Source: Escherichia phage phiP4
Reading direction: 5' to 3' (one strand)
Length of the DNA: 64,000 bases
Sequence record: PP993145.1
Each line of letters begins with the position of its first letter. The first letter of the stretch is position 1. The notes beneath the pieces are model-generated. The model ran no database searches. It was not told the DNA's origin and worked only from the letters and a program-made list of their open reading frames with translations. Of the stretch, positions 19,549 through 31,636 are shown piece by piece. The position numbers were made by a program, and so were the translations under genes.

Positions 19549-19624
19549 TGGTAGTTAGTAGTGGATTTGAACCACTGTAATCGCTCCGTATGAAGGAGGT
19601 GCATAACCGCTCTGCCAACTAACT
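19549..19624 (-). tRNA. tRNA-Met (anticodon CAT)
   Basis: Hand fold: 7-bp acceptor, T-arm, anticodon loop TTCATAC, encoded CCA. Confidence 0.65.
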
Positions 19625-19720
19625 ATTATGTTTTACTAGACTAAGTAAGTATTCTTTATACTCTTTAGTCCAATTAGCTTTTTTAAACTTTCCTGGACGC
19701 ATAGTCTTAATTCCTAAATT

Positions 19721-19797
19721 TGGTACTCCGGGAGGGATTTAAACCCCCGATCTCTCGGTTATCAGCCGAGTGCTTTAGATCGCTAAGCTACCGAAGT
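19721..19797 (-). tRNA. tRNA-Ile (anticodon GAT)
   Basis: Hand fold: acceptor with one G-U, anticodon loop CTGATAA, encoded CCA. Confidence 0.65.
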
Positions 19798-19798
19798 A

Positions 19799-20026
19799 TT
19801 AACATTTTACAGCAGAACGTTTGCCATTTCTAGGCGCACCTGGAAGTCGTGCACGTTCTGCCATTATTCGCTTAATCTTTGAGATATTTTCTAGTGTTTG
19901 TTTTTCAGGCTTAATACCTGAAACACTACACCACTGACTACCATCCCATGCGGTAATGATCATAACACCATTACTCATGATCTTTTCTGTGAAAGTAATC
20001 CTCATTATAGCAACTCGTCTAAGCAA
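19799..20026 (-). CDS. hypothetical protein (75 aa)
   Basis: ORF track. Confidence 0.4.
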   Translation of the reverse strand: MLRRVAIMRITFTEKIMSNGVMIITAWDGSQWCSVSGIKPEKQTLENISKIKRIMAERARLPGAPRNGKRSAVKC

Positions 20027-20298
20027 GAGGTATATTTAAGTTTACCATCTTTATCTACTTTGATTTCGACTTCCGCTCGTGGTACTTGACGAACTACACC
20101 ATGAATCATCTTATAGCGAATGCCTTTAGCTGGTTCATGCTCTTTTGGAAATACTTGCTTAACCGTTACTACCTTGAAACCCTCACGCGGTGTTAACACT
20201 ACTACTTGATCACCTTTTTTGATCTTCCAAGAGCTAGGAAATTCATAGGTATAGCGTTGACCACCAGTTTGGAACACAACAGAAAGATAACGTTTCAT
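20005..20298 (-). CDS. hypothetical protein (97 aa)
   Basis: ORF track; promoter 20329..20357 upstream. Confidence 0.5.
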   Translation of the reverse strand: MKRYLSVVFQTGGQRYTYEFPSSWKIKKGDQVVVLTPREGFKVVTVKQVFPKEHEPAKGIRYKMIHGVVRQVPRAEVEIKVDKDGKLKYTSCLDELL

Positions 20299-20328
20299 TT
20301 GGTTTCCCTCTCATTAATTTATATAAAT

Positions 20329-20357
20329 ATTATAACAAGAAATAAGAGAGAAAGCAA
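20329..20357 (-). promoter_or_regulatory. sigma70-type early promoter (TTGCTT-N17-TATAAT)
   Basis: Hexamers and spacer read directly. Confidence 0.6.
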
Positions 20358-20365
20358 ATGAATTT

Positions 20366-20533
20366 TTAATAGAGTTTAGTCACTTCATAAACTATACTAC
20401 GAGATTCTTTATTACGTTCTATTAAATTAGCGTATGCTTTTTCAGCTTCGTTTTTAGTATTAAAGTCTATAACGTGGGAGGTATTAGCTCTGTTTGATTG
20501 ACTATACCAGATAACTACTAGGAGTTTAAACAT
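20366..20533 (-). CDS. hypothetical small protein (track ORF 20366..20560 trimmed to an internal ATG)
   Basis: Track start would overlap the tRNA at 20548..20634. Confidence 0.35.
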   Translation of the reverse strand: MFKLLVVIWYSQSNRANTSHVIDFNTKNEAEKAYANLIERNKESRSIVYEVTKLY

Positions 20534-20547
20534 ACTAGTCCTTAAAT

Positions 20548-20634
20548 TGGTGCTGGGCACAGGATTCGAACCTGCAGTGGGATTACTCCTCCTGATTACA
20601 AATCAGGTGCATTCAACCATTCTGCCAACCCAGC
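20548..20634 (-). tRNA. tRNA with long variable arm; anticodon loop TTTGTAA, formally anticodon TGT (Thr)
   Basis: Hand fold: 7-bp acceptor, CCA, 3-bp D-stem, 15-nt variable arm; identity ambiguous. Confidence 0.5.
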
Positions 20635-20642
20635 AGAACCCG

Positions 20643-20807
20643 TTATTTCAACGGGATTTCTTTTTCAATAACAGGAGACTTATCAGTCATAACTGTCATT
20701 GCCATTTGTTGTAGAAATTCAAAGGTGAAGGCTACACGTTCTTCACCAATCTCTACTTCTACACGTTTCTTTTGTTTATCGATCTTGACTTTTAGGTTAT
20801 CAGCCAT
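20643..20807 (-). CDS. small hypothetical protein (about 54 aa, below track threshold)
   Basis: Hand-translated ORF between two tRNAs, overlapping the stop of 20800..21021. Confidence 0.35.
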   Translation of the reverse strand: MADNLKVKIDKQKKRVEVEIGEERVAFTFEFLQQMAMTVMTDKSPVIEKEIPLK

Positions 20808-21021
20808 CTTCGGGTTCTCGTTGCTGTGCTACTTCTAGCCAGTCTGGTAGAAGAAACTTTGTACGAAATTCTTCGTAAGTTTCTTTGGGATAAAAGCTAA
20901 AACCTCCTTTCTCATCATTCAGGATAACAGAGCCGTCCGTTTGTTCGTATGCTCGGTATGTTTCTCCAATAACAATAACTCGTTTATCGGTACTTTTATT
21001 ACGAAACTCAAAAACGTGCAT
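20800..21021 (-). CDS. hypothetical protein (73 aa)
   Basis: ORF track. Confidence 0.45.
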   Translation of the reverse strand: MHVFEFRNKSTDKRVIVIGETYRAYEQTDGSVILNDEKGGFSFYPKETYEEFRTKFLLPDWLEVAQQREPEDG

Positions 21022-21037
21022 AACGTTTCCTTAAAGT

Positions 21038-21113
21038 TGGAGCGGCTAGAGGGAATCGAACCCTACTCAGCGAGGCTTGGAAGGCCTGCGACACAACCCG
21101 TGTGCTTAACCGC
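21038..21113 (-). tRNA. tRNA-Gly (anticodon TCC)
   Basis: Hand fold: acceptor GCGGTTA/TAGCCGC, anticodon loop CTTCCAA, CCA. Confidence 0.6.
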
Positions 21114-21121
21114 TTATTATT

Positions 21122-21197
21122 TGGCTGGAGAAGGAGGAATCGAACCTACCATTAACGGAGTCAAAGGCCGTTGTGCTAACCGTTACACTACTCTCCA
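21122..21197 (-). tRNA. tRNA-Gln (anticodon TTG)
   Basis: Hand fold: anticodon loop CTTTGAC, CCA. Confidence 0.6.
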
Positions 21198-21203
21198 ATT
21201 GTT

Positions 21204-21279
21204 TGGCTGGGATGCCACGGATCGAACGTGGAACCTTCGGAGTCAGAGGCCGACGATCTGCCAATTGATCTACATCCCA
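21204..21279 (-). tRNA. tRNA-Gln (anticodon CTG)
   Basis: Hand fold: paralogous to previous tRNA, anticodon loop CTCTGAC, CCA. Confidence 0.6.
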
Positions 21280-21288
21280 AGAATGCTA

Positions 21289-21525
21289 TTAGCTAGATGC
21301 TGTTTCTACTGGCTGAGAAACAGCAGGCTGTTCTAACGTATCTGGTGCTGATACAGAGAAAAGAGCTTGTAATGCTGCAATATCACGCTCGTAAGTATCA
21401 ATACGAGTAGTAAGAGTATCTACCATCTGTTTATGGTAGGATAAGTTATTCTGAGATTCATCTCGAAGAGTTTGCAGTTCTGCAAGACGTGTTAACATAA
21501 TTTCACTAATTAAAGCATTACTCAT
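21289..21525 (-). CDS. hypothetical protein (78 aa)
   Basis: ORF track. Confidence 0.5.
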   Translation of the reverse strand: MSNALISEIMLTRLAELQTLRDESQNNLSYHKQMVDTLTTRIDTYERDIAALQALFSVSAPDTLEQPAVSQPVETASS

Positions 21526-21715
21526 TTGTTTCTCCTAAGTTTTCCTGTTCTTCTAAACGTTTGCCTTCATGATCTACTCGAATAACTCCGCATCCTTCGC
21601 AAATCACAACTGCACCATAACCTTCTTTGACCTCAGCTTCTGTAATCAAACCAGAAAGATCACCAGTATCTCTGCCCCACATATCAATGGAGCATTGTTT
21701 GCAGAAATCAGCCAT
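21518..21715 (-). CDS. hypothetical Cys-containing protein (65 aa)
   Basis: ORF track. Confidence 0.5.
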   Translation of the reverse strand: MADFCKQCSIDMWGRDTGDLSGLITEAEVKEGYGAVVICEGCGVIRVDHEGKRLEEQENLGETNE

Positions 21716-21740
21716 ATTTTATTTCCTATTTAAGTTAATT

Positions 21741-21817
21741 TGGGGTGGCTAGTGGAATTCGAATCCACATAGGCCTGATTCACAATCAGGATCATTAACC
21801 AATTATGATATAGCCAC
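21741..21817 (-). tRNA. tRNA-His (anticodon GTG)
   Basis: Hand fold: perfect acceptor GTGGCTA/TAGCCAC, anticodon loop TTGTGAA, CCA. Confidence 0.7.
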
Positions 21818-22186
21818 AATTGAAAACTCGCAGGGTTAGCGAAACCTTCCTCAATTAGCATGTTCTAGAATACTAATCAAGTTATCTCCTATTGCACGCA
21901 GCTCAAGACGAGTACGAATTTTCAATTGTGGCGGCTCTCAGAAACTCTTCTACTCTAGCTTTAGCAGCTTACTCCCGAACGCATGTCGGGGAAGTCTTAC
22001 CAAGAGCATCAAATAGCACCGTTACACTTTGAGCCATAGATGTATCAAGAAGCAGAAGGATTTGAACCTTCACGAGATAGACCAGTTATCTCAGCCGCTT
22101 TATGAGGTATGTTGCAGGGAGTGGATGTTCCCTATAAACCTTTTAGGCAGCCCCGTCTACCGATTCCGGCATACTTCAAGAATTTT

Positions 22187-22360
22187 TTATAAACCAGCAG
22201 AAGCCTCATTTAAAGCATCAACAATAGCTTCACGTTGGGTCATTCCATACCCGGTGGAATCTAGGTGTGGCAAATAAGCCATCCATCCCTTATCTGTTTC
22301 ATGAAGACATGCTTTAAATTTTTTACCATCCTTCATTGTTACAGTAACTGTTTTGCTCAT
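22187..22360 (-). CDS. small protein (57 aa) with HicB-like antitoxin fold signature
   Basis: Hand-translated MSKTVTVTMKDGKKFKACLHETDKGWMAYLPHLDSTGYGMTQREAIVDALNEASAGL; AAGGAA-type RBS. Confidence 0.4.
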   Translation of the reverse strand: MSKTVTVTMKDGKKFKACLHETDKGWMAYLPHLDSTGYGMTQREAIVDALNEASAGL

Positions 22361-22380
22361 AAGATTTCCTTATAGTTAAT

Positions 22381-22470
22381 TGGCAGAAGATAATGGAGTC
22401 GAACCATCACCGTATCGCTACAGCGGGCTGGTTTTCAAGACCAGTTACGTACCACTACGTCCTATCTTCT
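22381..22470 (-). tRNA. tRNA-Ser (anticodon TGA)
   Basis: Hand fold: class II, long variable arm, anticodon loop CTTGAAA, CCA. Confidence 0.65.
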
Positions 22471-22483
22471 AGTATTTATTATA

Positions 22484-22831
22484 CTAATAGTCACTCGTAC
22501 TAGTGAAGTTTTCTACTTTTCCACAGATTTTACAAGTCCTACGATGATAGTAGGTAATTTTTACTTTAGACCAGCCATCGTGATCATTACCTAGGTTTTC
22601 TGTTACTCCCCAAGTATGAGAACACTCATTTTCAATTTGCTTAGTAAGAGCGTTATAGCGAGTATAAAACTCCTCCTGAGCAATAGCAAATTCTTTCTGT
22701 AGTTTATCACGAGCAATAATAGCACGTTCCAGATATGTTAAATCAGGCATTCCAGCTTTTTCAGCAACATCTATAATCTTATCTTCATCTAAAGATGCTA
22801 AAAACTCTAGAGCTTTATCTTTTGTTAGCAT
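22484..22831 (-). CDS. hypothetical protein (115 aa)
   Basis: ORF track. Confidence 0.5.
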   Translation of the reverse strand: MLTKDKALEFLASLDEDKIIDVAEKAGMPDLTYLERAIIARDKLQKEFAIAQEEFYTRYNALTKQIENECSHTWGVTENLGNDHDGWSKVKITYYHRRTCKICGKVENFTSTSDY

Positions 22832-22850
22832 TATTATTACCTCAAGTGTT

Positions 22851-22941
22851 TGGCGGAAGAGGAGAGATTTGAACTCTCAAGCCGTTTTACCAGTCAGCCA
22901 CTTTCCAAGCGGTTTTCGTCACCAATTCGATTTGCTCTTCC
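22851..22941 (-). tRNA. tRNA-Ser (anticodon GGA)
   Basis: Hand fold: class II, long variable arm, anticodon loop TTGGAAA, CCA. Confidence 0.6.
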
Positions 22942-22974
22942 AATAATAAGATGATGCCTCTATCACACCAGGCA

Positions 22975-23053
22975 GTTACGCCTCGCTGGGATTCGAACCC
23001 ATTAAAACAGCTCAACCGAGATAGTAGGTTTAATTTACTCTGACCATCAAATT
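22975..23053 (-). pseudogene. tRNA-like remnant: T-arm (GGGTTCGAATCCC) with 3-prime acceptor half but no pairing 5-prime half
   Basis: The 13-mer GGGATTCGAACCC is duplicated 79 nt apart; no complementary acceptor strand found. Confidence 0.3.
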
Positions 23054-23130
23054 TGGTGCGTGACAAGGGATTCGAACCCTCAAAACCCGACTTCTAAGGA
23101 CGGTATGTATGCCAATTCCATCAATCACGC
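23054..23130 (-). tRNA. tRNA with Leu-type anticodon TAG but class I (short variable loop) architecture
   Basis: Hand fold: 7-bp acceptor GCGTGAT/GTCACGC, discriminator A, CCA, anticodon loop CTTAGAA, 5-nt variable loop. Confidence 0.5.
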
Positions 23131-23135
23131 ATATT

Positions 23136-23214
23136 TGGTGGAGAATAACGGAATCGAACCGTTCTGATGTCCTCGGTGCAAGCGAGGTGTCCACTCCATG
23201 CAGACCCATTCCCC
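23136..23214 (-). tRNA. tRNA-Ala (anticodon TGC)
   Basis: Hand fold: acceptor with G3:U70 pair, anticodon loop CTTGCAC, CCA. Confidence 0.65.
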
Positions 23215-23452
23215 AAATTCTTTAGTTTACTAAGGCTATTAGCTCGGCGTAACTACAGCACCTTCGCTTCGAGCGGAAGGAACTGCGTCATCTCGCAAAC
23301 CCAATACACTATTCAGTTGCCGCTGAATCTAGTGGACCAATCTAGAACTTCTCCCGAATCAGGGGGATCGTGCTTTTTGGCAGCCAGTCCTAGGTCGAGC
23401 TAATACCTTAGTGAACTATGATGAGGATTTCTCCTCATCAATTTATATAAAT

Positions 23453-23481
23453 ATTATAACAAGAAATTAAGCATCAAGCAA
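23453..23481 (-). promoter_or_regulatory. sigma70-type early promoter (TTGCTT-N17-TATAAT) upstream of a tRNA sub-cluster
   Basis: Hexamers and spacer read directly. Confidence 0.6.
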
Positions 23482-23500
23482 CTGCGTTTTTTCTTGAAAT

Positions 23501-23579
23501 TGGTAGATCGCCTGGGACTCGAACCCAGAACCTTCCGATTAAAAGTCGGATGCTACTAAACCTATTGAGCTAGCGATCT
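23501..23579 (-). tRNA. tRNA-Lys (anticodon TTT)
   Basis: Hand fold: perfect acceptor AGATCGC/GCGATCT, anticodon loop CTTTTAA, CCA. Confidence 0.7.
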
Positions 23580-23580
23580 A

Positions 23581-23748
23581 TTAGTAACCATTATACACTT
23601 CTTTAATAGAGTGGACTTTTAAGTAAGGGTGATTAGTACTAAACTCTACCATTACTTCATCCCAATTTTTACCATAATGAGCAAGTAAGGATTTTGATGT
23701 ATTCTTACCTAATCGTTTATCACTTACTACTAATCGAAATACTTTCAT
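23581..23748 (-). CDS. small hypothetical protein (about 55 aa, below track threshold)
   Basis: Hand-translated ORF between tRNA-Lys and the next tRNA. Confidence 0.35.
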   Translation of the reverse strand: MKVFRLVVSDKRLGKNTSKSLLAHYGKNWDEVMVEFSTNHPYLKVHSIKEVYNGY

Positions 23749-23768
23749 TTCGAAATCCTCTATTAAAA

Positions 23769-23846
23769 TGGAAGCGGGTGCAGGAATCGAACCTACCTCT
23801 TTCTAGCTTATGAGACTAGCGATCTCTACCAGAGATCTAACCCGCG
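23769..23846 (-). tRNA. tRNA with anticodon CAT (Met, initiator-like or Ile2)
   Basis: Hand fold: anticodon loop CTCATAA; position 1:72 unpaired (C/U), as in initiator tRNAs; CCA. Confidence 0.55.
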
Positions 23847-23852
23847 ATTATT

Positions 23853-23929
23853 TGGTCAGTGCGGCAGGACTCGAACCTGCGACCCGAAGCATCCAAGGCT
23901 CCCACGCTACCAACTGCGCTACGCACTGT
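23853..23929 (-). tRNA. tRNA-Pro (anticodon TGG)
   Basis: Hand fold: perfect acceptor CAGTGCG/CGCACTG, anticodon loop CTTGGAT, CCA. Confidence 0.7.
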
Positions 23930-24138
23930 TAATTTTTGTTAACTCACTTTATAAGATATATTATACAGAGAATTAAGCAGAATAGCAAATGAATTTTTAA
24001 TAAATTTACTTATTGTGTAGGCCACCTAGAGGCTATGAACCCCACGGCTGACAAAGAAGTTTGCGAGACTTCTCTTAAATGCCAGAATAGACCCGCCGAT
24101 CTATCGGAACCTACATAATAAGTAAACTTTATAGTGTC

Positions 24139-24753: not shown

Positions 24754-24830
24754 TGGCGCGACCGATGGGATTCGAACCCACATTCTCTCCCGTGACAGGG
24801 GAGTACCATTACCAAGCCAGCCCCGGTCGC
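24754..24830 (-). tRNA. tRNA-Asp (anticodon GTC)
   Basis: Hand fold: perfect acceptor GCGACCG/CGGTCGC, anticodon loop CTGTCAC, CCA. Confidence 0.7.
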
Positions 24831-25052: not shown

Positions 25053-25125
25053 TGGTATCTGTGGCTGAATTCGATGTCAGCAATGATAGCTGGTTGGCTA
25101 CCGGTTTACTTAACTCTACACAGAA
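25053..25125 (-). other. non-canonical tRNA-like element (no U33 in candidate anticodon loop, 8-nt T-loop)
   Basis: 6-bp acceptor with encoded CCA; anticodon loop CAACCAG lacks U33. Confidence 0.3.
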
Positions 25126-25127: not shown

Positions 25128-25210
25128 TGGCGGGCCGTGTAGGATTCGAACCTACGTTGTCTTTCGACATGGATTAACAGTCCACCGCCAAACCGCTTGG
25201 CTAACGACCC
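25128..25210 (-). tRNA. tRNA with 13-nt variable arm and anticodon GTT (Asn as read; Tyr-like architecture)
   Basis: Hand fold: acceptor GGGTCGT/ACGGCCC, 3-bp D-stem, anticodon loop CTGTTAA, CCA. Confidence 0.5.
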
Positions 25211-25362: not shown

Positions 25363-25438
25363 TGGACGACCGCATGAGATTTGAACTCACATAAAAAGGA
25401 TTTGCAATCCTTCGCCTAAGCCATTCAGCCAACGGTCG
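25363..25438 (-). tRNA. tRNA-Cys (anticodon GCA)
   Basis: Hand fold: perfect anticodon stem AAGGA/TCCTT, loop TTGCAAA, CCA. Confidence 0.7.
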
Positions 25439-26070: not shown

Positions 26071-26145
26071 TGGTGCACCCTGTTCGTATCGAACGAACCT
26101 CTCAAGCTCTTCAGGCAAGCGCTAATCCATCTCAGCTAAAGGTGC
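26071..26145 (-). tRNA. tRNA-Phe (anticodon GAA), weakly paired anticodon stem
   Basis: Hand fold: good acceptor and perfect T-arm; anticodon stem has two U-U mismatches; CCA. Confidence 0.45.
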
Positions 26146-26314: not shown

Positions 26315-26320
26315 TTAAAT

Positions 26321-26905: not shown

Positions 26906-27112
26906 CTAAACTCCAGACTCTTCAGCCAAGTCTAGACTAATAAGAGATATAGCCATAATTGCTGCTCCATGTTCTTTTTCTCCAGTTTCTTTAGCTAGAG
27001 TTATAATATCAAGAAATTGCTTATGAAAATCTGCAACCTCTTGAGTTAAACCCGCCTCAGCAATCATACCTTTAAGCATGAAACGTTGTGCGGTAATTTC
27101 AGGATTAGCCAT
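26906..27112 (-). CDS. hypothetical protein (68 aa)
   Basis: ORF track. Confidence 0.45.
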   Translation of the reverse strand: MANPEITAQRFMLKGMIAEAGLTQEVADFHKQFLDIITLAKETGEKEHGAAIMAISLISLDLAEESGV

Positions 27113-27272
27113 GTTGTTTCTCCAGTTTCATCTTTAATAGTCTACAAATAAAATCAATGTCTTCATCCGTGCCTAGATCTCTATCTTCAAGAGTTGCCTT
27201 GAAGTTTTTAGTCAATTCCATGAGAATAACTTCTCTAGAACGACGTGTTGGCGGAGGTGGATGTCTATACAT
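27105..27272 (-). CDS. small hypothetical protein (about 55 aa, below track threshold)
   Basis: Hand-translated ORF with 8-nt overlap onto the start of 26906..27112. Confidence 0.35.
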   Translation of the reverse strand: MYRHPPPPTRRSREVILMELTKNFKATLEDRDLGTDEDIDFICRLLKMKLEKQHG

Positions 27273-27287
27273 CTTATTTCCTTAATT

Positions 27288-27364
27288 TGGTAGGGGTGGT
27301 GGGATTCGAACCCACAAAACCTGAATTTTAAGTCCAGTACCTATGCCAATTCGATTACACCCCC
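27288..27364 (-). tRNA. tRNA with Leu-type anticodon TAA but class I (short variable loop) architecture
   Basis: Hand fold: acceptor GGGGGTG/CACCCCT with G1-U72, discriminator A, CCA, anticodon loop CTTAAAA. Confidence 0.5.
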
Positions 27365-27465
27365 ATGTAATCAGTTTATTAGTTGATACATATTATAGCC
27401 TAGTGAAAATCCTACTACTAATCCCACAAACCAACCAATATAATAATCTTTTAGTTTCACAGGTA

Positions 27466-27651
27466 TTATCCTCGTTCAATATCTAGGGAAATACCGCAGT
27501 TAGGATTAATACCTGTACCATTGCAATTTGCGCAAACCCAGATATTGCAAAAAGTATCTCCTGCTTCTGCATCAGAACTTTCACCAATTCCCCTACACTC
27601 AGGGCAGGCACATTCCTCTAGCTCTTGCTTGAGTTCTTGAAACTTGGACAT
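27466..27651 (-). CDS. Cys-rich zinc-ribbon-like small protein (61 aa)
   Basis: Paired CxxC motifs (CPEC ... CANC). Confidence 0.45.
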   Translation of the reverse strand: MSKFQELKQELEECACPECRGIGESSDAEAGDTFCNIWVCANCNGTGINPNCGISLDIERG

Positions 27652-27659
27652 ATAGTCTC

Positions 27660-27848
27660 CTAGTTAATTACTTTTGAGGCTTCTAAAGCATTGACGTAGT
27701 AAACATCTTCTACATTATACATATAGTCTACTACTTTGTCCATAGCATGGAGTTCAGATGTAGCCTTTACTAGTCTGTACCCTTGCTTAAACTCGTCCGA
27801 ATGTTCTCTATCTTGTGCAAATTTAACAGAAACTATGAATAATTCCAT
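27660..27848 (-). CDS. hypothetical protein (62 aa)
   Basis: ORF track. Confidence 0.4.
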   Translation of the reverse strand: MELFIVSVKFAQDREHSDEFKQGYRLVKATSELHAMDKVVDYMYNVEDVYYVNALEASKVIN

Positions 27849-27867
27849 TAGTTGTCCTTATTTAATT

Positions 27868-27945
27868 TGGTGGCTCCCCGAGGATTCGAACCTACGTACC
27901 TTCCGGTTATGAGCCGGGTGCTCATACCATATGAGCTTGAGAACC
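27868..27945 (-). tRNA. tRNA with anticodon CAT (third CAT tRNA; Met or Ile2), imperfect T-stem
   Basis: Hand fold: acceptor GGTTCTC/GGGAGCC, D-arm GCTC/GAGC, anticodon loop CTCATAA, CCA. Confidence 0.5.
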
Positions 27946-27951
27946 AAAATC

Positions 27952-28040
27952 TGGCGGAAGAAGTGGGAATCGAACCCACAAGGCTATATTTCAAGCCGAC
28001 AGATTAGCAATCTGCTGCAATACCGTTATGCTATTCTTCC
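27952..28040 (-). tRNA. tRNA-Ser (anticodon GCT)
   Basis: Hand fold: class II, perfect acceptor GGAAGAA/TTCTTCC, anticodon loop TTGCTAA, CCA. Confidence 0.65.
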
Positions 28041-28061
28041 GAATTTATAAGATATATTATA

Positions 28062-28580
28062 TTAGAAATTTAGCTTCATAGCAAGAAAATTTTTCAAGTT
28101 TTCGGTAGACATCTCATCCACATCTACAGGAGAAACAAAGCCGTTTAATTTTCTAGCAAATTTTTCACCTGCAGGGTCATTATCCCCGACAGCTACCAAT
28201 TTAAAAGGTAATAATTTCAGTTGCTTTAATAACGCTTTTCCTGGAGAAGAACCCAACATTGCCAGGGCTGGATAACCAGCGTTATGTAACGCAACTGCCT
28301 TAAATACAGATTCAGCAATCAATACTACTTTTTCATCTCCATTGAGAGTTTCTAGTCCCCATACACACTGGATAGTAGAATAAGTAAAATATTTAGCTTC
28401 AAATGGGCACTTACCATGACCTTTTGGAGCAGAAGGATTATACGTCTGATAGCCTCTCAACATCCCAGAGAAGTCATACAACGGGACTGTTAGCCATCCT
28501 TCCGGACTTAACCAGCAATGATATTTATCTGTATCAAATCCTCTAGATAAGAGGTGCTGTGTTAGCTCATCAACATTCAT
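28062..28580 (-). CDS. hypothetical protein (track ORF 28062..28631; start moved to ATG at 28580)
   Basis: Promoter -10 at 28611..28616 lies inside the track ORF; ATG at 28580 has a GAGAGG RBS. Confidence 0.5.
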   Translation of the reverse strand: MNVDELTQHLLSRGFDTDKYHCWLSPEGWLTVPLYDFSGMLRGYQTYNPSAPKGHGKCPFEAKYFTYSTIQCVWGLETLNGDEKVVLIAESVFKAVALHNAGYPALAMLGSSPGKALLKQLKLLPFKLVAVGDNDPAGEKFARKLNGFVSPVDVDEMSTENLKNFLAMKLNF

Positions 28581-28610
28581 ATTTGGTTCCTCTCTCAAAT
28601 TTATAGATAT

Positions 28611-28639
28611 ATTATACAGAGAATTTAGCATTCAAGCAA
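28611..28639 (-). promoter_or_regulatory. sigma70-type early promoter (TTGCTT-N17-TATAAT)
   Basis: Hexamers and spacer read directly. Confidence 0.6.
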
Positions 28640-28755
28640 TCAAATTTTTTAACTTTTTAGAGGAAAATCATATGGCACTTAAGGGTAGCAGATAAGTGGT
28701 GAGGACCAAAATTTGTGACCCCACTAAAAATCCGGGGGTAATTTTTAAAGACCCC

Positions 28756-28784
28756 TTGACATTTTCTCGGGGGTAGTGTAAAGT
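28756..28784 (+). promoter_or_regulatory. promoter-like element (TTGACA-N17-TAAAGT) for the + strand island
   Basis: Perfect -35 TTGACA, 17-nt spacer, weaker -10. Confidence 0.4.
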
Positions 28785-28846
28785 ATACGTTATGGATGAG
28801 TGATCAAAGAGACACACATTTTCTATATACTAGGAGGTGTCAAAAA

Positions 28847-29833
28847 ATGACAGAAGAAGTAGCTAAGAGTCCTGAGACCGTCGCTAGCGTTGCAGCAGAA
28901 CTGCACCGTCACGAGGAATCGGATAAGAAAAAGTGGGAGAAGGTCAGAGCCTACGAAGAGAAACATCGCGAACACGACGATGAAGAAGATGACGATGATG
29001 AACATTGTCATAAATATGGAAAACATAAAATGCAAGAACCAGTAAACGTATTCACTAGTGGCTTCCCTGGCCTACTGGGTGGTTACCCAGCAAACGCAGG
29101 TGCTTTCGGTGGTGAAGGTATGGGACTATTCGGAGCTATCCTAATCGGTGCTCTATTAACAGGCGGATTCGGTGGTTTCGGTGGATTCGGTGGACGTGGT
29201 GTAGTTGGTGATGGTACCGCAGTTGATGCAGTACTTCAGAACCAAGATACCGCTAGTATTCTAGCAGCTATTAACACTACTCGTACAGAAGCTAACCAGG
29301 GTACTGGAGCTGTTTTAAGCGCAGTTAACAATGGTTTTAGCCAGACATCCCAAAACCAGAGCCGTGATACTCAGTCTGTACTAACTACGATCTATGGTAC
29401 AGGTGCTAATCTGTCTAATCAGATCTGCCAGGAAACTCGCAACGTTATTCAGGGTCAGTTCGATCTTTCTCGCCAGATTGATCAATCTTTCGCAGCTAAC
29501 CAGATAGCTCGTGCACAAGATAAGTTTGATTCTGCACAGATCGCTTTCCAGCAGACTTTACAAACTAATAACCAGTTTGCCGCTGTTCAGGCTCAGATGT
29601 GTGCTAACCAGAACTCTCTGGAACGTCAGATCGCTGAATGTTGCTGTGAACTTCAGACTGCGATCGCTGGTGTAACTACTGCGCGTATCCAGGATGAGTT
29701 AGACGCATGTCGCCTACGTGAAGCAATCGCTGCTGGTAGCGGTGCTAACGGTCAGGTAATTAATCAAATCGCTTTAAGTCTTGGTGCTATCACTCAGACT
29801 CTGGCTGGTCTGCAGGCTAAACTGCCGGCTTAA
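28847..29833 (+). CDS. low-complexity protein: acidic N-terminus, Gly-Phe repeat hydrophobic segment, Gln/Asn-rich body, Cys cluster (track ORF 28796..29833)
   Basis: AGGAGG RBS before ATG at 28847; GGFGGFGGFGG and ECCCE motifs read directly. Confidence 0.5.
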   Translation: MTEEVAKSPETVASVAAELHRHEESDKKKWEKVRAYEEKHREHDDEEDDDDEHCHKYGKHKMQEPVNVFTSGFPGLLGGYPANAGAFGGEGMGLFGAILIGALLTGGFGGFGGFGGRGVVGDGTAVDAVLQNQDTASILAAINTTRTEANQGTGAVLSAVNNGFSQTSQNQSRDTQSVLTTIYGTGANLSNQICQETRNVIQGQFDLSRQIDQSFAANQIARAQDKFDSAQIAFQQTLQTNNQFAAVQAQMCANQNSLERQIAECCCELQTAIAGVTTARIQDELDACRLREAIAAGSGANGQVINQIALSLGAITQTLAGLQAKLPA

Positions 29834-29854
29834 TATTAAGGGGAGGAGCCCATT

Positions 29855-30259
29855 ATGAGTAAATATGGTTTTGTAAATAACGGACTTAATCAAAGTATGG
29901 GCTCCCAGCAGCCCATGCCGGGTCTGGATAACCCCTACTTACAACAGTTGCAACAGCGTTTAGCAGAAGCGCAACAGATGCAGCAACAACTCCAGCAAAA
30001 CCCTGGAAGTGTGAGTCCTATGCAAATGATGCAGCAAATGAGCGGGCAGTCGCAAATGCCTCAACAAATGCAGCAACAGGTGCCGCAGCAGCAAACCCAA
30101 CAACCGCAGGTTTCTGCGGAAGGACAGGCAGTACTAGCCCTTTTCGAAGACTTCGCAAAGACAGAGGATGGGAAACAGCTTGTATCACTTATGGGTAAGT
30201 TTAATAGCTTCTGCCAAAGCCAAGTTGCAAAAGCTCAAAATGGTGGTAATAACTCCTAA
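29855..30259 (+). CDS. Gln/Met-rich low-complexity protein (134 aa)
   Basis: GGAGG RBS; polyQ-like composition. Confidence 0.5.
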   Translation: MSKYGFVNNGLNQSMGSQQPMPGLDNPYLQQLQQRLAEAQQMQQQLQQNPGSVSPMQMMQQMSGQSQMPQQMQQQVPQQQTQQPQVSAEGQAVLALFEDFAKTEDGKQLVSLMGKFNSFCQSQVAKAQNGGNNS

Positions 30260-30268
30260 GGAGGAATT

Positions 30269-30463
30269 ATGTGTTGCAGAAAATCTGTTTCGTGCTGCCC
30301 AATGCCTGTAACACGTTGTTGCTCTCCAGCAATGTTTACGCAAATACCGGCGTTCAATCCGTTTGCCTTTAAACCTATTCTTATCCTGCCCCCTAGAGTA
30401 GATTTTCAGTCAAGATTGGCCTCCCGTATGGGTGGTTGCTGTACACCGAGAGTGTGGTTCTAA
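30269..30463 (+). CDS. Cys-rich small protein (64 aa)
   Basis: AGGAGG RBS upstream; multiple CC pairs. Confidence 0.45.
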   Translation: MCCRKSVSCCPMPVTRCCSPAMFTQIPAFNPFAFKPILILPPRVDFQSRLASRMGGCCTPRVWF

Positions 30464-30477
30464 ACCAAAAAACAAAA

Positions 30478-30510
30478 GCCCCTGCCGAAAGGTAAGGGGC
30501 TTTTTCTTTT
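30478..30510 (+). terminator. rho-independent terminator (GCCCCT ... AGGGGC + T-run)
   Basis: GC stem followed by TTTTTCTTTT. Confidence 0.6.
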
Positions 30511-30518
30511 GCCTTAAA

Positions 30519-30554
30519 TACAGAAAAGCCCGCGCTCTCGGAGGAAACGCGGGC
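30519..30554 (-). terminator. rho-independent terminator for the minus-strand SPFH gene (GCCCGCG ... CGCGGGC + U-run)
   Basis: GC stem followed on minus strand by TTTTCTG. Confidence 0.6.
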
Positions 30555-30579
30555 TTGGTTCGAAGATTACGTGTAACTA

Positions 30580-31527
30580 TTACTTGTTACGCATATCCAT
30601 GATCATTTGACCATCGTAGCCAGTACCTACCACAGTCTGAGGCACACCACCTTGATACTTCTGAGCACGAATCATTTCAACTTCCAGTTGCTTCCAGCGA
30701 ATCATCTCAGGAGTAATGGTACGTTGCAATGCGGCGTTAGCTTCAGCTTCTTTTTTAGCTGCGTACAGTTTAGCATCTGCGTCACGTTCGTTAGCAATAG
30801 CCTGGTTATTACGGGCTTCACGGTCTGCTTCTGCCTGTTTAACTTTTTGCTGTGCTTCTTGTTCAACACGAGCCAACTCAGCTTTTGCAGCATTAACTTG
30901 CTCTTCACGAACTTTGGTATTCTGTACCTGTTCCATGATTACTGGTGGCAGAGTAATATCCTGAAGGAATACCTGCTTAACTGTGTAACCATATGGGCGT
31001 GCATACTCTTCAACTTCTTGTTGAATTGCAGTTTGCAATTGAGCCTGAATTTTAGCATCAAACAAATCTTGTGCTTTAGGTACAGACTTACCAAACTCAC
31101 GAATAGTAGACAGTAATTTTTCAGTTACATATTTGTCTAACGCTTGATCCTGAGTACCCGCATTAATACGGTTAATCGGTGCCTTAGAACCATCAAACTG
31201 CAACATAACAGTCAGGTCAACAGTGGATTTAAACTTATCCTGGCTAGGAACCTGAAGTTTATCTAATTTTACAGCAATATCTTTTGTACTAAAAGTATCG
31301 AAAGATGCAAATGGGTTTACAAGATGGAAACCCGGTAATACTGGGTTAGGATCTACTTTACCCAGAAATGTTTGGGTTTTAACCGTACCATCAGAAACAA
31401 TAGTATATGAATTAAAGGCTAGAATCAAGCCTGCTAAACCAACTACAGCACCAATACCCCAACGTTTAATAGTACGAATTACTTTCTGCTCAGAAGTCAG
31501 TTCTTTCATATTTTTAGTATTAAACAT
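30580..31527 (-). CDS. SPFH/band-7 (stomatin/prohibitin/HflK-C-like) membrane protein (315 aa)
   Basis: N-terminal TM segment, SPFH-like core, C-terminal Ala/Glu/Gln-rich coiled coil. Confidence 0.65.
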   Translation of the reverse strand: MFNTKNMKELTSEQKVIRTIKRWGIGAVVGLAGLILAFNSYTIVSDGTVKTQTFLGKVDPNPVLPGFHLVNPFASFDTFSTKDIAVKLDKLQVPSQDKFKSTVDLTVMLQFDGSKAPINRINAGTQDQALDKYVTEKLLSTIREFGKSVPKAQDLFDAKIQAQLQTAIQQEVEEYARPYGYTVKQVFLQDITLPPVIMEQVQNTKVREEQVNAAKAELARVEQEAQQKVKQAEADREARNNQAIANERDADAKLYAAKKEAEANAALQRTITPEMIRWKQLEVEMIRAQKYQGGVPQTVVGTGYDGQMIMDMRNK

Positions 31528-31561
31528 ATATTTCCTTTGTTTTAGTTACAGTTAATAAAAT

Positions 31562-31636
31562 TGGCCGAGGTGACAGGATTCGAACCTGCATAAAGGAATT
31601 TAGAAGACTCCTGCCTCTCCCTTAGACTACACCCCG
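31562..31636 (-). tRNA. tRNA-Arg (anticodon TCT)
   Basis: Hand fold: acceptor CGGGGTG/CACCTCG, anticodon loop CTTCTAA, CCA. Confidence 0.65.

What the first reader, a model, noticed from the sequence alone, without database searches (positions are those of the whole stretch)
19549..31636. Cluster of 24 tRNA genes, all on the minus strand, interleaved with small ORFs
Hand folding gives 24 tRNAs with anticodons CAT (x3), GAT, TGT, TCC, TTG, CTG, GTG, TGA, GGA, TAG, TGC, TTT, TGG, GTC, GTT, GCA, GAA, TTC, GTA, TAA, GCT, TCT. Nearly all encode their own CCA. No Val or Trp tRNA was recognised, and several have unusual architectures.
Basis: partly seen in the sequence, partly recalled or inferred. 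Interest (0 to 1): 0.6.

Follow-up and report, generated by a model that had tools for sequence, protein, structure and literature searches.

The report
T5-type phage tRNA gene cluster
This is the well-known tRNA-rich region of a T5-like bacteriophage (25 working tRNA genes plus small genes), ordinary for this phage family, although a few of its tRNAs have odd shapes that turn out to be common in phages and rare in cells.

Summary
ARAGORN at default settings finds 21 of them. Gly-UCC, Ser-GGA and the third CAU need a relaxed threshold, but are backed by Rfam, by identity to phage T5 genes or by covariation. tRNA-Val is genuinely absent. All 25 encode CCA, and shuffled sequence gives no predictions.

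The window is 96-97% identical to Tequintavirus phages. The locus is the T5 "tRNA-rich region", already annotated in T5 and shown experimentally to counter the tRNA-cleaving defences PARIS and retron-Eco7/Septu. It is therefore already known and of low interest.

The "unusual architectures" are real:
- Two tRNA-Leu lack the long variable arm.

In a survey of 1,834 phage tRNAs made here, both features were widespread and specific to certain isoacceptors. Long-arm Thr(UGU) was about 10 times commoner in viral contigs than in cellular genomes. I found no description of this in the held literature. Whether it reflects escape from nucleases is untested.

The parts
19549..19624 (-). tRNA-Met(CAU), elongator, 76 nt
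   Evidence: ARAGORN default; Rfam 51.2 bits; 97.4% identical to T5 T5t01
19721..19797 (-). tRNA-Ile(GAU), 77 nt
   Evidence: Rfam 65.5 bits; 100% identical to T5t02
20548..20634 (-). tRNA-Thr(UGU), 87 nt. Class-II-like shape: 3-bp D-stem, 11-nt D-loop and a 15-nt variable region containing the hairpin GGA-GUAA-UCC
   Evidence: Rfam 58.6 bits; structure; not the T5 allele; covariation; about 100 phage records carry it
21038..21113 (-). tRNA-Gly(UCC), 76 nt
   Evidence: ARAGORN -ps90 only; Rfam below threshold (30.9 bits, matched as tRNA-Sec); 100% identical to T5t04, which the T5 record notes as convertible to an effective suppressor
21122..21197 (-). tRNA-Gln(UUG), 76 nt
   Evidence: Rfam 50.0 bits
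21204..21279 (-). tRNA-Gln(CUG), 76 nt
   Evidence: Rfam 56.4 bits
21741..21817 (-). tRNA-His(GUG), 77 nt
   Evidence: Rfam 59.9 bits; 100% identical to T5t07
21819..22035 (-). Homologues of the T5 stable RNAs RNAIII (21819-21924) and RNAI (21929-22035)
   Evidence: 99% and 92% identity to the T5 features annotated in NC_005859
22043..22178 (-). tRNA-like element, homologue of T5 'RNA1 tRNA-like stable RNA'. It has acceptor, D and T arms with an insertion of about 55 nt
   Evidence: 85% identical to T5 RNA1; Rfam tRNA 26.5 bits, below the gathering score; sequence
22381..22470 (-). tRNA-Ser(UGA), 90 nt, class II
   Evidence: ARAGORN default; Rfam only as tRNA-Sec, 40.3 bits, below the gathering score; 80 of 90 positions identical to T5t08
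22851..22941 (-). tRNA-Ser(GGA), 91 nt, class II
   Evidence: ARAGORN -ps90; not found by Rfam; conserved in 7 phages with compensatory changes in the T, anticodon and variable stems
23054..23130 (-). tRNA-Leu(UAG), 77 nt, with only a 5-nt variable loop (no long arm)
   Evidence: Rfam 47.5 bits; structure; the T5 allele at this position is an 85-nt class II tRNA; A73, A14, A15-U48, G18G19 and A20a are present (read from the sequence, compared)
23136..23214 (-). tRNA-Ala(UGC), 79 nt, with a 7-nt variable loop and an irregular D arm
   Evidence: ARAGORN default; Rfam only 23.6 bits; identical allele in Seafire, 84% in a Klebsiella phage
23234..23405 (-). Homologue of T5 stable RNA 'RNA2H'
   Evidence: 96% identity over 172 nt
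23501..23579 (-). tRNA-Lys(UUU), 79 nt, with an enlarged D-loop; positions 36-41 read UAAUCG
   Evidence: Rfam 60.9 bits; not the T5 allele; anticodon stem-loop
23769..23846 (-). tRNA-fMet(CAU), initiator type, 78 nt, with a C1/U72 mismatch
   Evidence: Rfam 42.1 bits; 100% identical to T5t14, which is annotated as the initiator
23853..23928 (-). tRNA-Pro(UGG), 76 nt
   Evidence: Rfam 62.7 bits
24014..24259 (-). Homologues of T5 RNAIV (24014-24116) and 'RNA2 tRNA-like stable RNA' (24135-24259). The second contains the pseudo-tRNA that ARAGORN -ps90 calls 'Arg-GCG' at 24190-24257 (no CCA)
   Evidence: 96-97% identity to the T5 features
24754..24830 (-). tRNA-Asp(GUC), 77 nt
   Evidence: Rfam 49.0 bits; 98.7% identical to T5t16
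25053..25125 (-). Homologue of T5 'RNA3 putative tRNA-like RNA'
   Evidence: 100% identity over 73 nt; not called by ARAGORN or Rfam
25128..25210 (-). tRNA-Asn(GUU), 83 nt, with a 13-nt variable region containing the hairpin GTC-GAAA-GAC
   Evidence: Rfam 59.0 bits; not the T5 allele; a related 86-nt allele has ATCC-GCAA-GGAT instead
25363..25438 (-). tRNA-Cys(GCA), 76 nt
   Evidence: Rfam 48.5 bits; 100% identical to T5t18
26071..26145 (-). tRNA-Phe(GAA), 75 nt
   Evidence: Rfam 42.4 bits; 97% identical to T5t19
A1-U72 and G73 are present; U2/U71 and U3/U70 are conserved mismatches
   Evidence: ARAGORN default; Rfam 36.3 bits; compensatory changes against the Klebsiella phage homologue
26238..26314 (-). 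tRNA-Glu(UUC), 77 nt
   Evidence: Rfam 53.7 bits
26321..26407 (-). tRNA-Tyr(GUA), 87 nt, class II, with the same variable arm as T5 tRNA-Tyr
   Evidence: Rfam 33.0 bits; alignments
27288..27364 (-). tRNA-Leu(UAA), 77 nt, with a 5-nt variable loop (no long arm); absent from T5 itself
   Evidence: Rfam 57.4 bits; at least 325 phage records at 95% identity or more; all stems covary against the Klebsiella phage version while the LeuRS identity elements stay fixed
27868..27945 (-). tRNA-Ile2(CAU), presumed lysidine type that reads AUA, 78 nt
   Evidence: ARAGORN -ps90; Rfam 40.3 bits; 97.4% identical to T5t23, annotated as tRNA-Ile2
27952..28040 (-). tRNA-Ser(GCU), 89 nt, class II
   Evidence: Rfam 60.5 bits; 98.9% identical to T5t24
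31562..31636 (-). tRNA-Arg(UCU), 75 nt
   Evidence: Rfam 49.3 bits; 100% identical to T5t25
31637..32263 (-). Homologue of T5 stable RNA 'RNAX'. It contains a tRNA-like element at 32138-32211 that has no CCA and no canonical anticodon loop
   Evidence: 92-99% identical to T5 RNAX; Rfam tRNA 35.5 bits at 32139-32210; alignment across 7 phages supports a hairpin with a 6-nt loop
19317..27848 (-). Twenty small ORFs (54-115 aa) interleaved with the tRNAs, including a Q-like antiterminator homologue at 27466-27651
   Evidence: ORF list; each matches a PHROG family over its full length, E = 1e-33 to 1e-80, 19 of 20 of unknown function
28062..31527 (.). Non-tRNA module that splits the cluster: Toprim-domain ORF (28062-28631, minus strand), plus-strand ORFs (28796-30602), a strong bidirectional terminator-like hairpin (30526-30556) and an SPFH/Band-7 ORF (30580-31527, minus strand)
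   Evidence: Pfam; terminator scan; same layout as T5.076-T5.080

Best explanation
The locus is the tRNA-rich region of a T5-like phage (Tequintavirus). It holds 25 functional tRNA genes that serve 19 amino acids plus initiation; Val is missing. All lie on one strand and are interleaved with conserved small early ORFs and with homologues of the T5 stable and tRNA-like RNAs.

By analogy with T5 (inferred, not shown here), the genes are transcribed leftward from several sigma-70 promoters as mixed tRNA-mRNA transcripts. Host RNases then cut out the tRNAs, whose CCA ends are already encoded, and host aminoacyl-tRNA synthetases charge them.

The set does two things. First, it supplies decoders for A-ending codons that the AT-rich phage uses far more than the host does. 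Second, it keeps phage translation running when host tRNAs are destroyed by tRNA-targeting defences. The second role is shown experimentally for T5: its tRNA-Lys, Thr and Asn counter PARIS AriB, and its tRNA-Tyr counters retron-Eco7/Septu PtuAB. That this particular phage's alleles do the same is inferred.
For: Identity of the locus: 96-97% nucleotide identity over 90-96% of the region to many Tequintavirus genomes. Gene order is the same as in T5 NC_005859, and 12 tRNAs are at least 97% identical to annotated T5 tRNAs.

Functionality of the tRNAs: high Rfam scores, 25 of 25 with encoded CCA, compensatory changes in Thr, Trp, Leu and Ser-GGA, and no predictions in shuffles.

Codon match (phage relative use divided by host relative use): AGA 9.3, CUA 4.7, GGA 2.9, AUA 2.7, ACA 2.5, CCA 2.5, UUA 2.3, each with a cognate phage tRNA. 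GC at third codon positions is 0.32 in the phage against 0.57 in the host.

Counter-defence role in T5: PMC11464382 and PMC12409363, PMC11555353 and PMC13096335. The window's tRNA-Tyr has the same variable arm as T5's. Phage Bas33 carries the same 87-nt Thr allele and needs only T5 tRNA-Lys to be rescued on PARIS-positive cells.
Against: Nothing here shows expression, processing or charging in this particular phage. The sigma-70 pattern scan does not exceed chance overall (29 sites against 33.8 in shuffles).

Codon compensation is incomplete. GUA is 2.25 times enriched, yet there is no tRNA-Val, and for two-fold NNY boxes the Watson-Crick codon is the less used one.

The window's Thr and Asn keep the exact AriB recognition sequence U36AAUC|A/C41, and its Lys keeps U39. 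Their resistance to PARIS therefore cannot be assumed from the T5 results.

T5 deletion mutants that lack most of the region grow on laboratory hosts, so the region is conditionally dispensable.
Confidence: 0.88

Rival explanations
1. Codon compensation only. The tRNAs exist solely to match the phage's AT-rich codon usage to a GC-richer host and have no role against defence systems.
For: Every phage tRNA with U at position 34 matches an A-ending codon that the phage uses 1.2-9.3 times more than the host.
Against: Across all codons, those with a Watson-Crick phage tRNA are not significantly more enriched than the rest (Mann-Whitney p = 0.20). There is no tRNA-Val despite GUA enrichment. Experiments in T5 show specific rescue from PARIS and retron-Eco7 by single tRNAs. 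Isoacceptors are swapped as cassettes between closely related phages, with 2-4 allele classes among 7 phages, which codon usage alone does not predict.
Confidence: 0.2
2. General replenishment. The near-complete tRNA set replaces the host pool as it decays after T5-type host shut-off and DNA degradation, without regard to specific nucleases.
For: The set could read about 87-90% of the sense codons in the window's ORFs. This is my arithmetic on the frequencies, assuming E. coli wobble rules. The region is expressed early in T5 (annotation).
Against: This idea does not explain why particular isoacceptors are hyper-variable or carry altered architecture while others (Arg-UCU, His, Asp) are nearly invariant. 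Depletion of host tRNA during T5 infection was not examined here.
Confidence: 0.25
3. Recoding or mischarging. The odd tRNAs are charged with a non-cognate amino acid, for example the class-II-shaped tRNA with a Thr anticodon is charged with Ser or Leu, and so alter the meaning of codons.
For: The 87-nt Thr tRNA has a class-II type D arm, A73 and A15-U48, which are also LeuRS features. tRNAs with long arms and non-Ser anticodons are known to be serylated in some bacteria (my own knowledge: the allo-tRNAs of Mukai et al. 2017).
Against: The ThrRS identity set is intact: G1-C72, C2-G71, G35 and U36. C2-G71 is listed as an antideterminant for SerRS (review table). The variable stem is only 3 bp. 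In the survey, 21 of 22 long-arm Thr(UGU) begin with G1 C2. The short-arm Leu tRNAs keep every known LeuRS element.
Confidence: 0.04
4. Decaying or selfish cassettes. Many of the tRNAs are non-functional relics kept only by linkage or by homing-endonuclease traffic.
For: The region is dispensable in the laboratory. It contains tRNA-like remnants: RNA1, RNA2, RNA3 and the element at 32138. T5 has one tRNA gene interrupted by an HNH endonuclease gene.
Against: All 25 tRNAs keep intact cloverleaves and CCA. Extensive compensatory evolution is seen. Identical alleles are kept across genera.
Confidence: 0.03

Closest known systems
tRNA gene region of Escherichia phage T5 (NC_005859 / AY543070), called the 'tRNA-rich region (TRR)' in recent papers
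   Same: Same position and gene order. 12 tRNAs are at least 97% identical. Homologues of the stable RNAs RNAI, RNAIII, RNAIV, RNA2H, RNAX and of the tRNA-like RNA1-3 are present. The flanking genes are the same: GrcA-like, Toprim, SPFH and the gene annotated 'tRNA amidotransferase'.
   Different: Ten isoacceptors (Thr, Gln x2, Ser-GGA, Leu-UAG, Ala, Lys, Pro, Asn, Trp) are different alleles, only 55-72% identical. tRNA-Val is absent and tRNA-Leu(UAA) is present. There are no HNH homing-endonuclease genes inside the cluster. The exact allele combination matches other sequenced Tequintaviruses such as Stokescottia, T5_ev212 and slur09 at 96-97%.
T5 tRNA-Lys/Thr/Asn variants that escape PARIS AriB (PMC11464382, PMC12409363)
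   Same: Same isoacceptors in the same locus. Phage Bas33, which carries the window-type 87-nt Thr allele, needs only T5 tRNA-Lys for rescue.
   Different: The T5 variants escape through substitutions at positions 39 and 41. The window's Thr and Asn keep the host-like UAAUC|A/C sequence and instead carry an extra variable-region hairpin, and its Lys has U39 and G41. Whether they resist AriB was not tested.
T5 tRNA-Tyr escape from retron-Eco7/Septu PtuAB through a distinctive variable loop (PMC11555353, PMC13096335)
   Same: The window's tRNA-Tyr has the same variable arm as T5's. This is a precedent that the variable region can determine sensitivity to a nuclease.
   Different: That case concerns a tRNA that is class II in bacteria anyway. 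Here normally class-I tRNAs (Thr, Asn) have gained an arm, and a class-II tRNA (Leu) has lost one.
Animal mitochondrial tRNA-Leu, the only setting in which the review PMC9976931 says tRNA-Leu lacks the long arm
   Same: A tRNA-Leu with a short variable loop that is still expected to be charged through A73 and core elements.
   Different: The phage versions keep a full bacterial-type D arm, T arm and the LeuRS elements A15-U48, G18G19 and A20a, and would be charged by the bacterial LeuRS. They are not reduced, AT-biased mitochondrial tRNAs.
Phage T4 tRNA cluster (8 tRNAs plus stable RNA species 1 and 2)
   Same: A same-strand cluster of tRNAs with small stable RNAs and nearby homing endonucleases in a virulent coliphage. 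Its tRNA-Tyr is related: 83-89% matches to T4-like phages.
   Different: It is much smaller, not a near-complete decoding set, and sits in a different genomic context.

Membership tests
Tequintavirus / T5-like tRNA-rich region | Nucleotide similarity and shared gene order with the T5 tRNA region | tested here: met
   96-97% identity over 90-96% of 19000-32500 to many Tequintavirus genomes. T5 features map in the same order.
Tequintavirus / T5-like tRNA-rich region | More than 20 same-strand tRNA genes with encoded CCA, interleaved with small ORFs | tested here: met
   25 tRNAs, all on the minus strand, 25 of 25 with CCA. 20 small ORFs match PHROG families.
Tequintavirus / T5-like tRNA-rich region | Homologues of the T5 stable RNAs (RNAI, III, IV, 2H, X) and tRNA-like RNAs (RNA1-3) | tested here: met
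   85-100% identity to each T5 feature.
Tequintavirus / T5-like tRNA-rich region | HNH homing-endonuclease genes inside the cluster (hegA, hegC, hegD in T5). This is a variable feature, not a strictly defining one | tested here: not met
   No minus-strand ORF longer than 115 aa lies between 19.5 and 28.0 kb. T5_ev212 and Stokescottia also lack them.
Canonical tRNA (Rfam RF00005 / ARAGORN cloverleaf) | Score above the curated threshold in at least one of the two tools | tested here: met
   23 of 25 pass ARAGORN default or the Rfam gathering score. Gly-UCC and Ser-GGA pass only ARAGORN -ps90 but are supported by 100% identity to T5 and by covariation.
Canonical tRNA (applied to the element at 32138-32211) | 7-nt anticodon loop with U33, and a 3' CCA | tested here: not met
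   A at position 33 in the ARAGORN fold and no CCA. The cross-phage alignment supports a 6-nt loop. It is a tRNA-like RNA, not a decoder, even though Rfam scores it at 35.5 bits.
Class II (long-arm) tRNA, applied to Thr(UGU) at 20548-20634 | Variable region of at least 10 nt that forms a stem-loop, with a 3-bp D-stem and a long D-loop | tested here: met
   15-nt variable region with GGA-GUAA-UCC, a 3-bp D-stem and an 11-nt D-loop. One compensatory change in the variable stem.
Class II (long-arm) tRNA, applied to Thr(UGU) at 20548-20634 | Isotype is Leu, Ser, Tyr or Sec | tested here: not met
   The anticodon is UGU and the ThrRS elements G1-C72 and C2-G71 are present. It is class-II-shaped but is not a member of the classical class II set.
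Bacterial tRNA-Leu, applied to 23054-23130 and 27288-27364 | E. coli LeuRS identity set: A73, A15-U48, G18G19, A20a (A14) | tested here: met
   Read from the sequences against the review. The elements are conserved in the Klebsiella phage homologue while the stems covary.
Bacterial tRNA-Leu, applied to 23054-23130 and 27288-27364 | Long variable arm | tested here: not met
   5-nt variable loop in both. The T5 allele of Leu(UAG) is 85 nt with a long arm.
Bacterial initiator tRNA, applied to 23769-23846 | Mismatch at positions 1-72 | tested here: met
   C1/U72. 100% identical to the T5 gene annotated as initiator.
Bacterial initiator tRNA, applied to 23769-23846 | Three consecutive G-C pairs at the bottom of the anticodon stem | tested here: not met
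   The stem pairs are C-G, U-A, A-U, G-C and U/G. The requirement itself is from my own knowledge of E. coli tRNA-fMet.
AriB (PARIS)-resistant phage tRNA variants of the T5 type | Substitution at U39 and/or A41 relative to the host tRNA | tested here: not met
   Thr reads UAAUCA and Asn reads UAAUCC, identical to E. coli. Lys reads UAAUCG, changed only at position 41.
AriB (PARIS)-resistant phage tRNA variants of the T5 type | Not cleaved by activated AriB | not testable with these tools
   Only indirect evidence: Bas33, with the same Thr allele and a related Asn allele, is rescued by T5 tRNA-Lys alone.

The most novel reading that the evidence does not exclude
The odd shapes in this cluster are examples of a general, phage-specific remodelling of the tRNA variable region. 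About a third of phage tRNA-Leu have lost the long arm while keeping every LeuRS identity element. [quoted passage not shown] Arg(UCU), Pro, Asp, Ala and Phe never do. The most novel reading is that changing the tRNA's shape, rather than its anticodon stem-loop sequence, is a second route by which phage tRNAs escape host nucleases that read tRNA architecture, while the tRNAs stay chargeable by host synthetases.
Probability: 0.3. Interest if true: 0.6.

Novelty: already known. Interest (0 to 1): 0.27.

Why it matters
The cluster itself adds nothing new. It is one more copy of the T5-type tRNA-rich region, whose gene content has been annotated for decades and whose counter-defence role has been shown experimentally since 2024.

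What may matter is the side observation. Textbook rules say that tRNA-Leu always has a long variable arm outside animal mitochondria and that tRNA-Thr and tRNA-Asn never do. In phage genomes both rules are broken often, and only for particular isoacceptors. If these shape changes protect phage tRNAs from defence nucleases, they would extend the current picture of escape through anticodon-loop mutation. They would also help predict which phages evade which tRNA-targeting systems, which is useful when choosing therapeutic phages. The arm-less Leu tRNAs are also a natural demonstration that bacterial LeuRS does not need the long arm.

Tried and rejected
1. ARAGORN with introns at -ps80 gave 46 calls, many with implausible 100-2900-nt introns on both strands. 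I treated these as noise.

2. The -ps90 call 'Arg-GCG' at 24190-24257 (68 nt, no CCA) is not a tRNA gene. It lies inside the homologue of T5 tRNA-like RNA2. The -ps90 'Gly-TCC' at 38408-38499 (92 nt, no CCA) is probably a false positive and was not followed up.

3. I asked whether the tRNA-like elements RNA1, RNA2 and RNA3 are decayed copies of tRNAs that other T5-like phages keep at those positions (Gly-GCC, Lys-CUU, Arg-ACG). Local alignments found only T-arm similarity, so there is no support.

4. Three ORFs of exactly 115 aa (18050-18397, 22484-22831, 24381-24728) looked like paralogues. BLASTP finds no similarity and they fall in different families.

5. In the T5-like panel, long-variable-region Thr and Asn alleles keep a host-like anticodon stem while normal-length alleles have G39. 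This did not generalise: in the IMG/VR sample U39 occurs in 10 of 20 long-arm Thr, no more than in normal ones. The hosts there are unknown, so the test is weak.

6. The sigma-70 promoter scan did not exceed the shuffled expectation (29 against 33.8). Individual strong sites coincide with promoters annotated in T5, but the scan alone proves nothing.

7. Four literature searches for prior descriptions of arm-less phage tRNA-Leu or long-arm phage tRNA-Thr/Asn found none in the held library. This does not prove that none exists.

Full report
**1. Checking the observation**

ARAGORN at default settings reports 22 tRNA genes in the 64-kb window. All are on the minus strand, all lie between 19549 and 31636, and there are none elsewhere. 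Rfam's tRNA model also reports 22 above its gathering score, but the sets differ. Rfam adds 27871-27945 and 32139-32210 and omits Ser-UGA and Ala-UGC.

Running ARAGORN locally at 90% of its thresholds gives 27 calls. These include the three reader anticodons that were missing: Gly-TCC 21038-21113, Ser-GGA 22851-22941 and a third CAT at 27868-27945. Each has independent support:
- Gly-TCC is 100% identical to T5's tRNA-Gly(UCC). The T5 record notes that this tRNA can be converted into an effective suppressor.
- The third CAT scores 40.3 bits in Rfam and is 97% identical to T5 tRNA-Ile2(CAU).
- Ser-GGA is present in seven T5-like phages, with compensatory changes in three stems.

There is indeed no tRNA-Val. 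All 25 encode their CCA end.

As a chance control I resampled the 14-kb region 30 times with a first-order Markov model. ARAGORN default gave 0 predictions in every resample. The relaxed setting gave one prediction in each of 2 resamples. The remaining 50 kb of the window gave one weak relaxed hit.

**2. What the locus is**

The region is 96-97% identical over 90-96% of its length to many Tequintavirus genomes, including Stokescottia, slur09, SE11 and T5_ev212. The reference T5 record annotates the same region with 25 tRNAs, several stable RNAs (RNAI, III, IV, 2H, X), three "tRNA-like stable RNAs" (RNA1-3), promoters and a bidirectional terminator. All of these map onto the window in the same order.

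The 20 small ORFs between the tRNAs each match a PHROG family over its full length, and 19 of the 20 are of unknown function. The flanking and intervening genes are:
- a GrcA-like glycyl-radical protein
- a Toprim-domain protein
- an SPFH protein
- a weak YqeY-like protein that T5 annotates as "tRNA amidotransferase"

Recent papers call this locus the "tRNA-rich region".

Four further tRNA-like elements are not decoders:
- 22043-22178 is the RNA1 homologue.
- 24135-24259 is the RNA2 homologue and contains the spurious "Arg-GCG" call.
- 25053-25125 is the RNA3 homologue.
- 32138-32211 lies inside the RNAX homologue. It has no CCA, and a cross-genus alignment supports a 6-nt loop rather than a 7-nt one.

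**3. How it most likely works**

Shown elsewhere for T5:
- Deletion mutants that lack much of the region grow on laboratory hosts but become sensitive to PARIS.
- T5 tRNA-Lys(UUU), Thr(UGU) and Asn(GUU) together neutralise the AriB nuclease. AriB cuts the host versions between positions 40 and 41, next to the sequence U36AAUC.
- T5 tRNA-Tyr rescues infection from retron-Eco7, and its distinctive variable loop is credited with resistance.

Shown here for codon usage: in 69 window ORFs compared with 40 E. coli K-12 genes, the A-ending codons matched by the phage's U34 tRNAs are used more by the phage than by the host.

| Codon | Phage relative use / host relative use |
|---|---|
| AGA | 9.3 |
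| CUA | 4.7 |
| GGA | 2.9 |
| AUA | 2.7 |
| ACA | 2.5 |
| CCA | 2.5 |
| UUA | 2.3 |

GC at third codon positions is 0.32 in the phage and 0.57 in the host. The match is imperfect. GUA is 2.25 times enriched without a tRNA-Val, and the overall test is not significant (p = 0.20). Assuming E. coli wobble rules, the phage set could read roughly 87-90% of the phage's sense codons. This is my arithmetic on the frequencies.

Inferred: transcription from multiple leftward promoters as in T5, processing by host RNases and charging by host synthetases. The pattern scan finds strong sites where T5 annotates promoters and finds the bidirectional terminator at 30526-30556, but the number of promoter-like sites does not exceed chance.

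**4. Differences from T5 and the unusual architectures**

Twelve tRNAs are at least 97% identical to T5's. Ten are different alleles with only 55-72% identity: Thr, both Gln, Ser-GGA, Leu-UAG, Ala, Lys, Pro, Asn and Trp. Across seven closely related phages, most isoacceptors exist as 2-4 allele classes, and identical cassettes are shared between genera. Arg-UCU, His, Asp, Val and Leu-UAA are nearly invariant.

(a) Both Leu tRNAs are 77 nt with a 5-nt variable loop. The T5 allele of Leu(UAG) is an 85-nt long-arm tRNA. Both short forms keep A73, A14, A15-U48, G18G19 and A20a. According to the identity review, this is the set E. coli LeuRS needs, and the long arm is dispensable. The Klebsiella-phage Leu(UAA) differs in almost every stem pair but keeps these elements and the short loop.

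(b) tRNA-Thr(UGU) is 87 nt, with a class-II type D arm and a variable hairpin GGA-GUAA-UCC. tRNA-Asn is 83 nt, with the hairpin GTC-GAAA-GAC. Related alleles have GCAA or GAAA loops and covarying stems. On six variants, including one from an Aeromonas T4-like phage, the cloverleaf is 98.5% paired with 5 doubly compensated pairs. None of 500 shuffles reached these values.

(c) tRNA-Trp keeps A1-U72 and G73 and has two conserved U/U mismatches.

The Thr and Asn alleles keep anticodon stem-loops almost identical to E. coli's, including the AriB motif. The T5-type alleles have G39 instead. Phage Bas33 (HildyBeyeler) carries the same Thr allele and an 86-nt Asn allele but no Lys(UUU). The PARIS paper reports that T5 tRNA-Lys alone rescues Bas33. 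This indirectly suggests that these long-arm alleles hold up under PARIS.

**5. Survey beyond the window**

Three pattern scans of IMG/VR searched for the anticodon loops of Thr-UGU, Asn-GUU and Arg-UCU, placed 10-30 nt upstream of a canonical T-loop. They returned 346 loci containing 1,834 distinct ARAGORN tRNAs.

| tRNA group | With variable region of 10 nt or more |
|---|---|
| Thr(UGU) | 22 of 154 |
| Asn(GUU) | 17 of 151 |
| Arg(UCU) | 0 of 143 |
| Pro(UGG) | 0 of 66 |
| Asp | 0 of 61 |
| Ala(UGC) | 0 of 57 |
| Phe | 0 of 47 |
| Other class-I tRNAs found as bystanders | 50 of 1,063 (4.7%) |

Fisher's exact tests give p = 3e-7 for Thr against Arg(UCU) and p = 1e-5 for Asn against Arg(UCU). 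The insertions almost always form hairpins of 3-5 bp. GNRA tetraloops cap 16 of 39, against about 3% expected by chance. Of the long-arm Thr, 21 of 22 begin with G1 C2.

Conversely, 48 of 145 phage tRNA-Leu (33%) have a variable region of 6 nt or fewer, against 2 of 100 Ser and 3 of 69 Tyr (p = 3e-13). These short-arm Leu tRNAs keep the following features:
- a 3-bp D-stem (35 of 48)
- a 10-11-nt D-loop (42 of 48)
- A15-U48 (45 of 48)
- A73 (21 of 21 where CCA is encoded)

The same Thr pattern run on cellular genomes gave 2 long-arm forms among 83 Thr(UGU), against 20 of 96 in the like-for-like viral scan (odds ratio 10.7, p = 1.4e-4).

Caveats:
- The samples are the first 120 matches of each scan.
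- They require one particular T-loop sequence.
- They rest on ARAGORN folds alone.
- IMG/VR hosts are unknown.
- Some of the genome hits may be prophages.

The panel-level link between a long arm and a host-like anticodon stem did not generalise. Four literature searches found no description of these architectures in phages.

**6. Verdict**

The finding is real and correctly interpreted, with one omission (Trp). It is the already known tRNA-rich region of T5-like phages, in an allele combination also present in about a hundred sequenced relatives, so interest is low.

The part worth keeping is the side observation that the window's odd tRNAs belong to widespread, isoacceptor-specific and phage-enriched architectural classes. 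Shape-based escape from tRNA-targeting nucleases is a plausible explanation (about 0.3) but is untested. The main alternative for the arm-less Leu tRNAs is simple tolerance, because LeuRS, unlike SerRS and TyrRS, does not need the arm.

Noticed in passing
window 23054-23130 and 27288-27364; IMG/VR loci L016-L361: Both tRNA-Leu lack the long variable arm but keep all E. coli LeuRS identity elements. In a survey of 1,834 phage tRNAs, 48 of 145 tRNA-Leu (33%) were arm-less, against 2% of Ser and 4% of Tyr. This contradicts the review's statement that tRNA-Leu has a long arm everywhere except animal mitochondria.
   Followed up: yes
window 20548-20634 and 25128-25210; L008 301-385; L015 8777-8862 and 14001-14087; IMG/VR loci: [quoted passage not shown] Such forms make up 14% and 11% of sampled phage Thr(UGU) and Asn(GUU), none of 143 Arg(UCU), and 2 of 83 Thr(UGU) in cellular genomes.
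   Followed up: yes
window 20548-20634, 23501-23579, 25128-25210: The three isoacceptors targeted by PARIS AriB are all non-T5 alleles here. Thr and Asn keep the host-like cleavage-site sequence U36AAUC|A/C41, and Lys has U39 and G41. Bas33 carries the same Thr allele, and the literature reports that it needs only T5 tRNA-Lys for rescue on PARIS-positive cells.
   Followed up: partly
window 32138-32211 (inside the RNAX homologue 31637-32263); L004 18107-18180: A conserved tRNA-like element without CCA scores 35.5 bits in Rfam. GenBank records annotate it as 'tRNA-OTHER', 'tRNA' or, in STP-SP9, 'tRNA-Sec'. The cross-genus alignment shows one double compensatory change that supports a 6-nt loop. 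Its function is unknown.
   Followed up: partly
window 22043-22178 and 24135-24259: The homologues of T5 RNA1 and RNA2 look like tRNAs with large internal insertions. RNA2 has an 8-bp acceptor-like stem, two T-arm-like hairpins and ends in ACA rather than CCA. JLBYU43 annotates its RNA1 homologue as an intron-containing tRNA-Phe(AAA).
   Followed up: partly
panel loci L001-L007 compared with the window: tRNA genes behave as exchangeable cassettes. Among 7 closely related phages most isoacceptors have 2-4 allele classes below 85% identity (4 for Ala; 3 each for Asn, Lys, Tyr, Leu-UAG, Pro, Glu, Ile and Gln-CUG), and identical alleles are shared between Tequintavirus and Epseptimavirus. Arg-UCU, His, Asp, Val, Trp and Leu-UAA are nearly invariant.
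   Followed up: partly
window 26153-26229: tRNA-Trp has two U/U mismatches in the acceptor stem (positions 2-71 and 3-70). They are conserved in the Klebsiella phage homologue even though neighbouring pairs change in a compensatory way, so the mismatches appear to be selected.
   Followed up: partly
window 23769-23846: The initiator-type tRNA, 100% identical to T5's annotated tRNA-fMet, has the 1-72 mismatch but only one of the three G-C pairs that characterise the anticodon stem of bacterial initiators.
   Followed up: no
window 26321-26407: tRNA-Tyr matches at 83-89% in hundreds of unrelated large coliphages (T4-like and others). These matches account for most of the 916 'hits' at 80-90% identity in the phage database search.
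   Followed up: no
window 32471-32905: The ORF next to the cluster, annotated in T5-like phages as 'tRNA amidotransferase' or 'recombination-related exonuclease', gives only a weak YqeY-domain match (20.8 bits, below the Pfam cut-off of 27). The annotation looks poorly founded.
   Followed up: no
genome locus L469: In a cellular genome contig, ARAGORN calls an 86-nt tRNA with a UGU (Thr) anticodon whose D-loop (GAATTGGCATA) and long arm look like a tRNA-Leu body. It may be a prophage tRNA or an identity-switched tRNA.
   Followed up: no
window 38408-38499: ARAGORN at the relaxed threshold calls a 92-nt 'tRNA-Gly(TCC)' without CCA, far from the cluster. It is probably a false positive.
   Followed up: no
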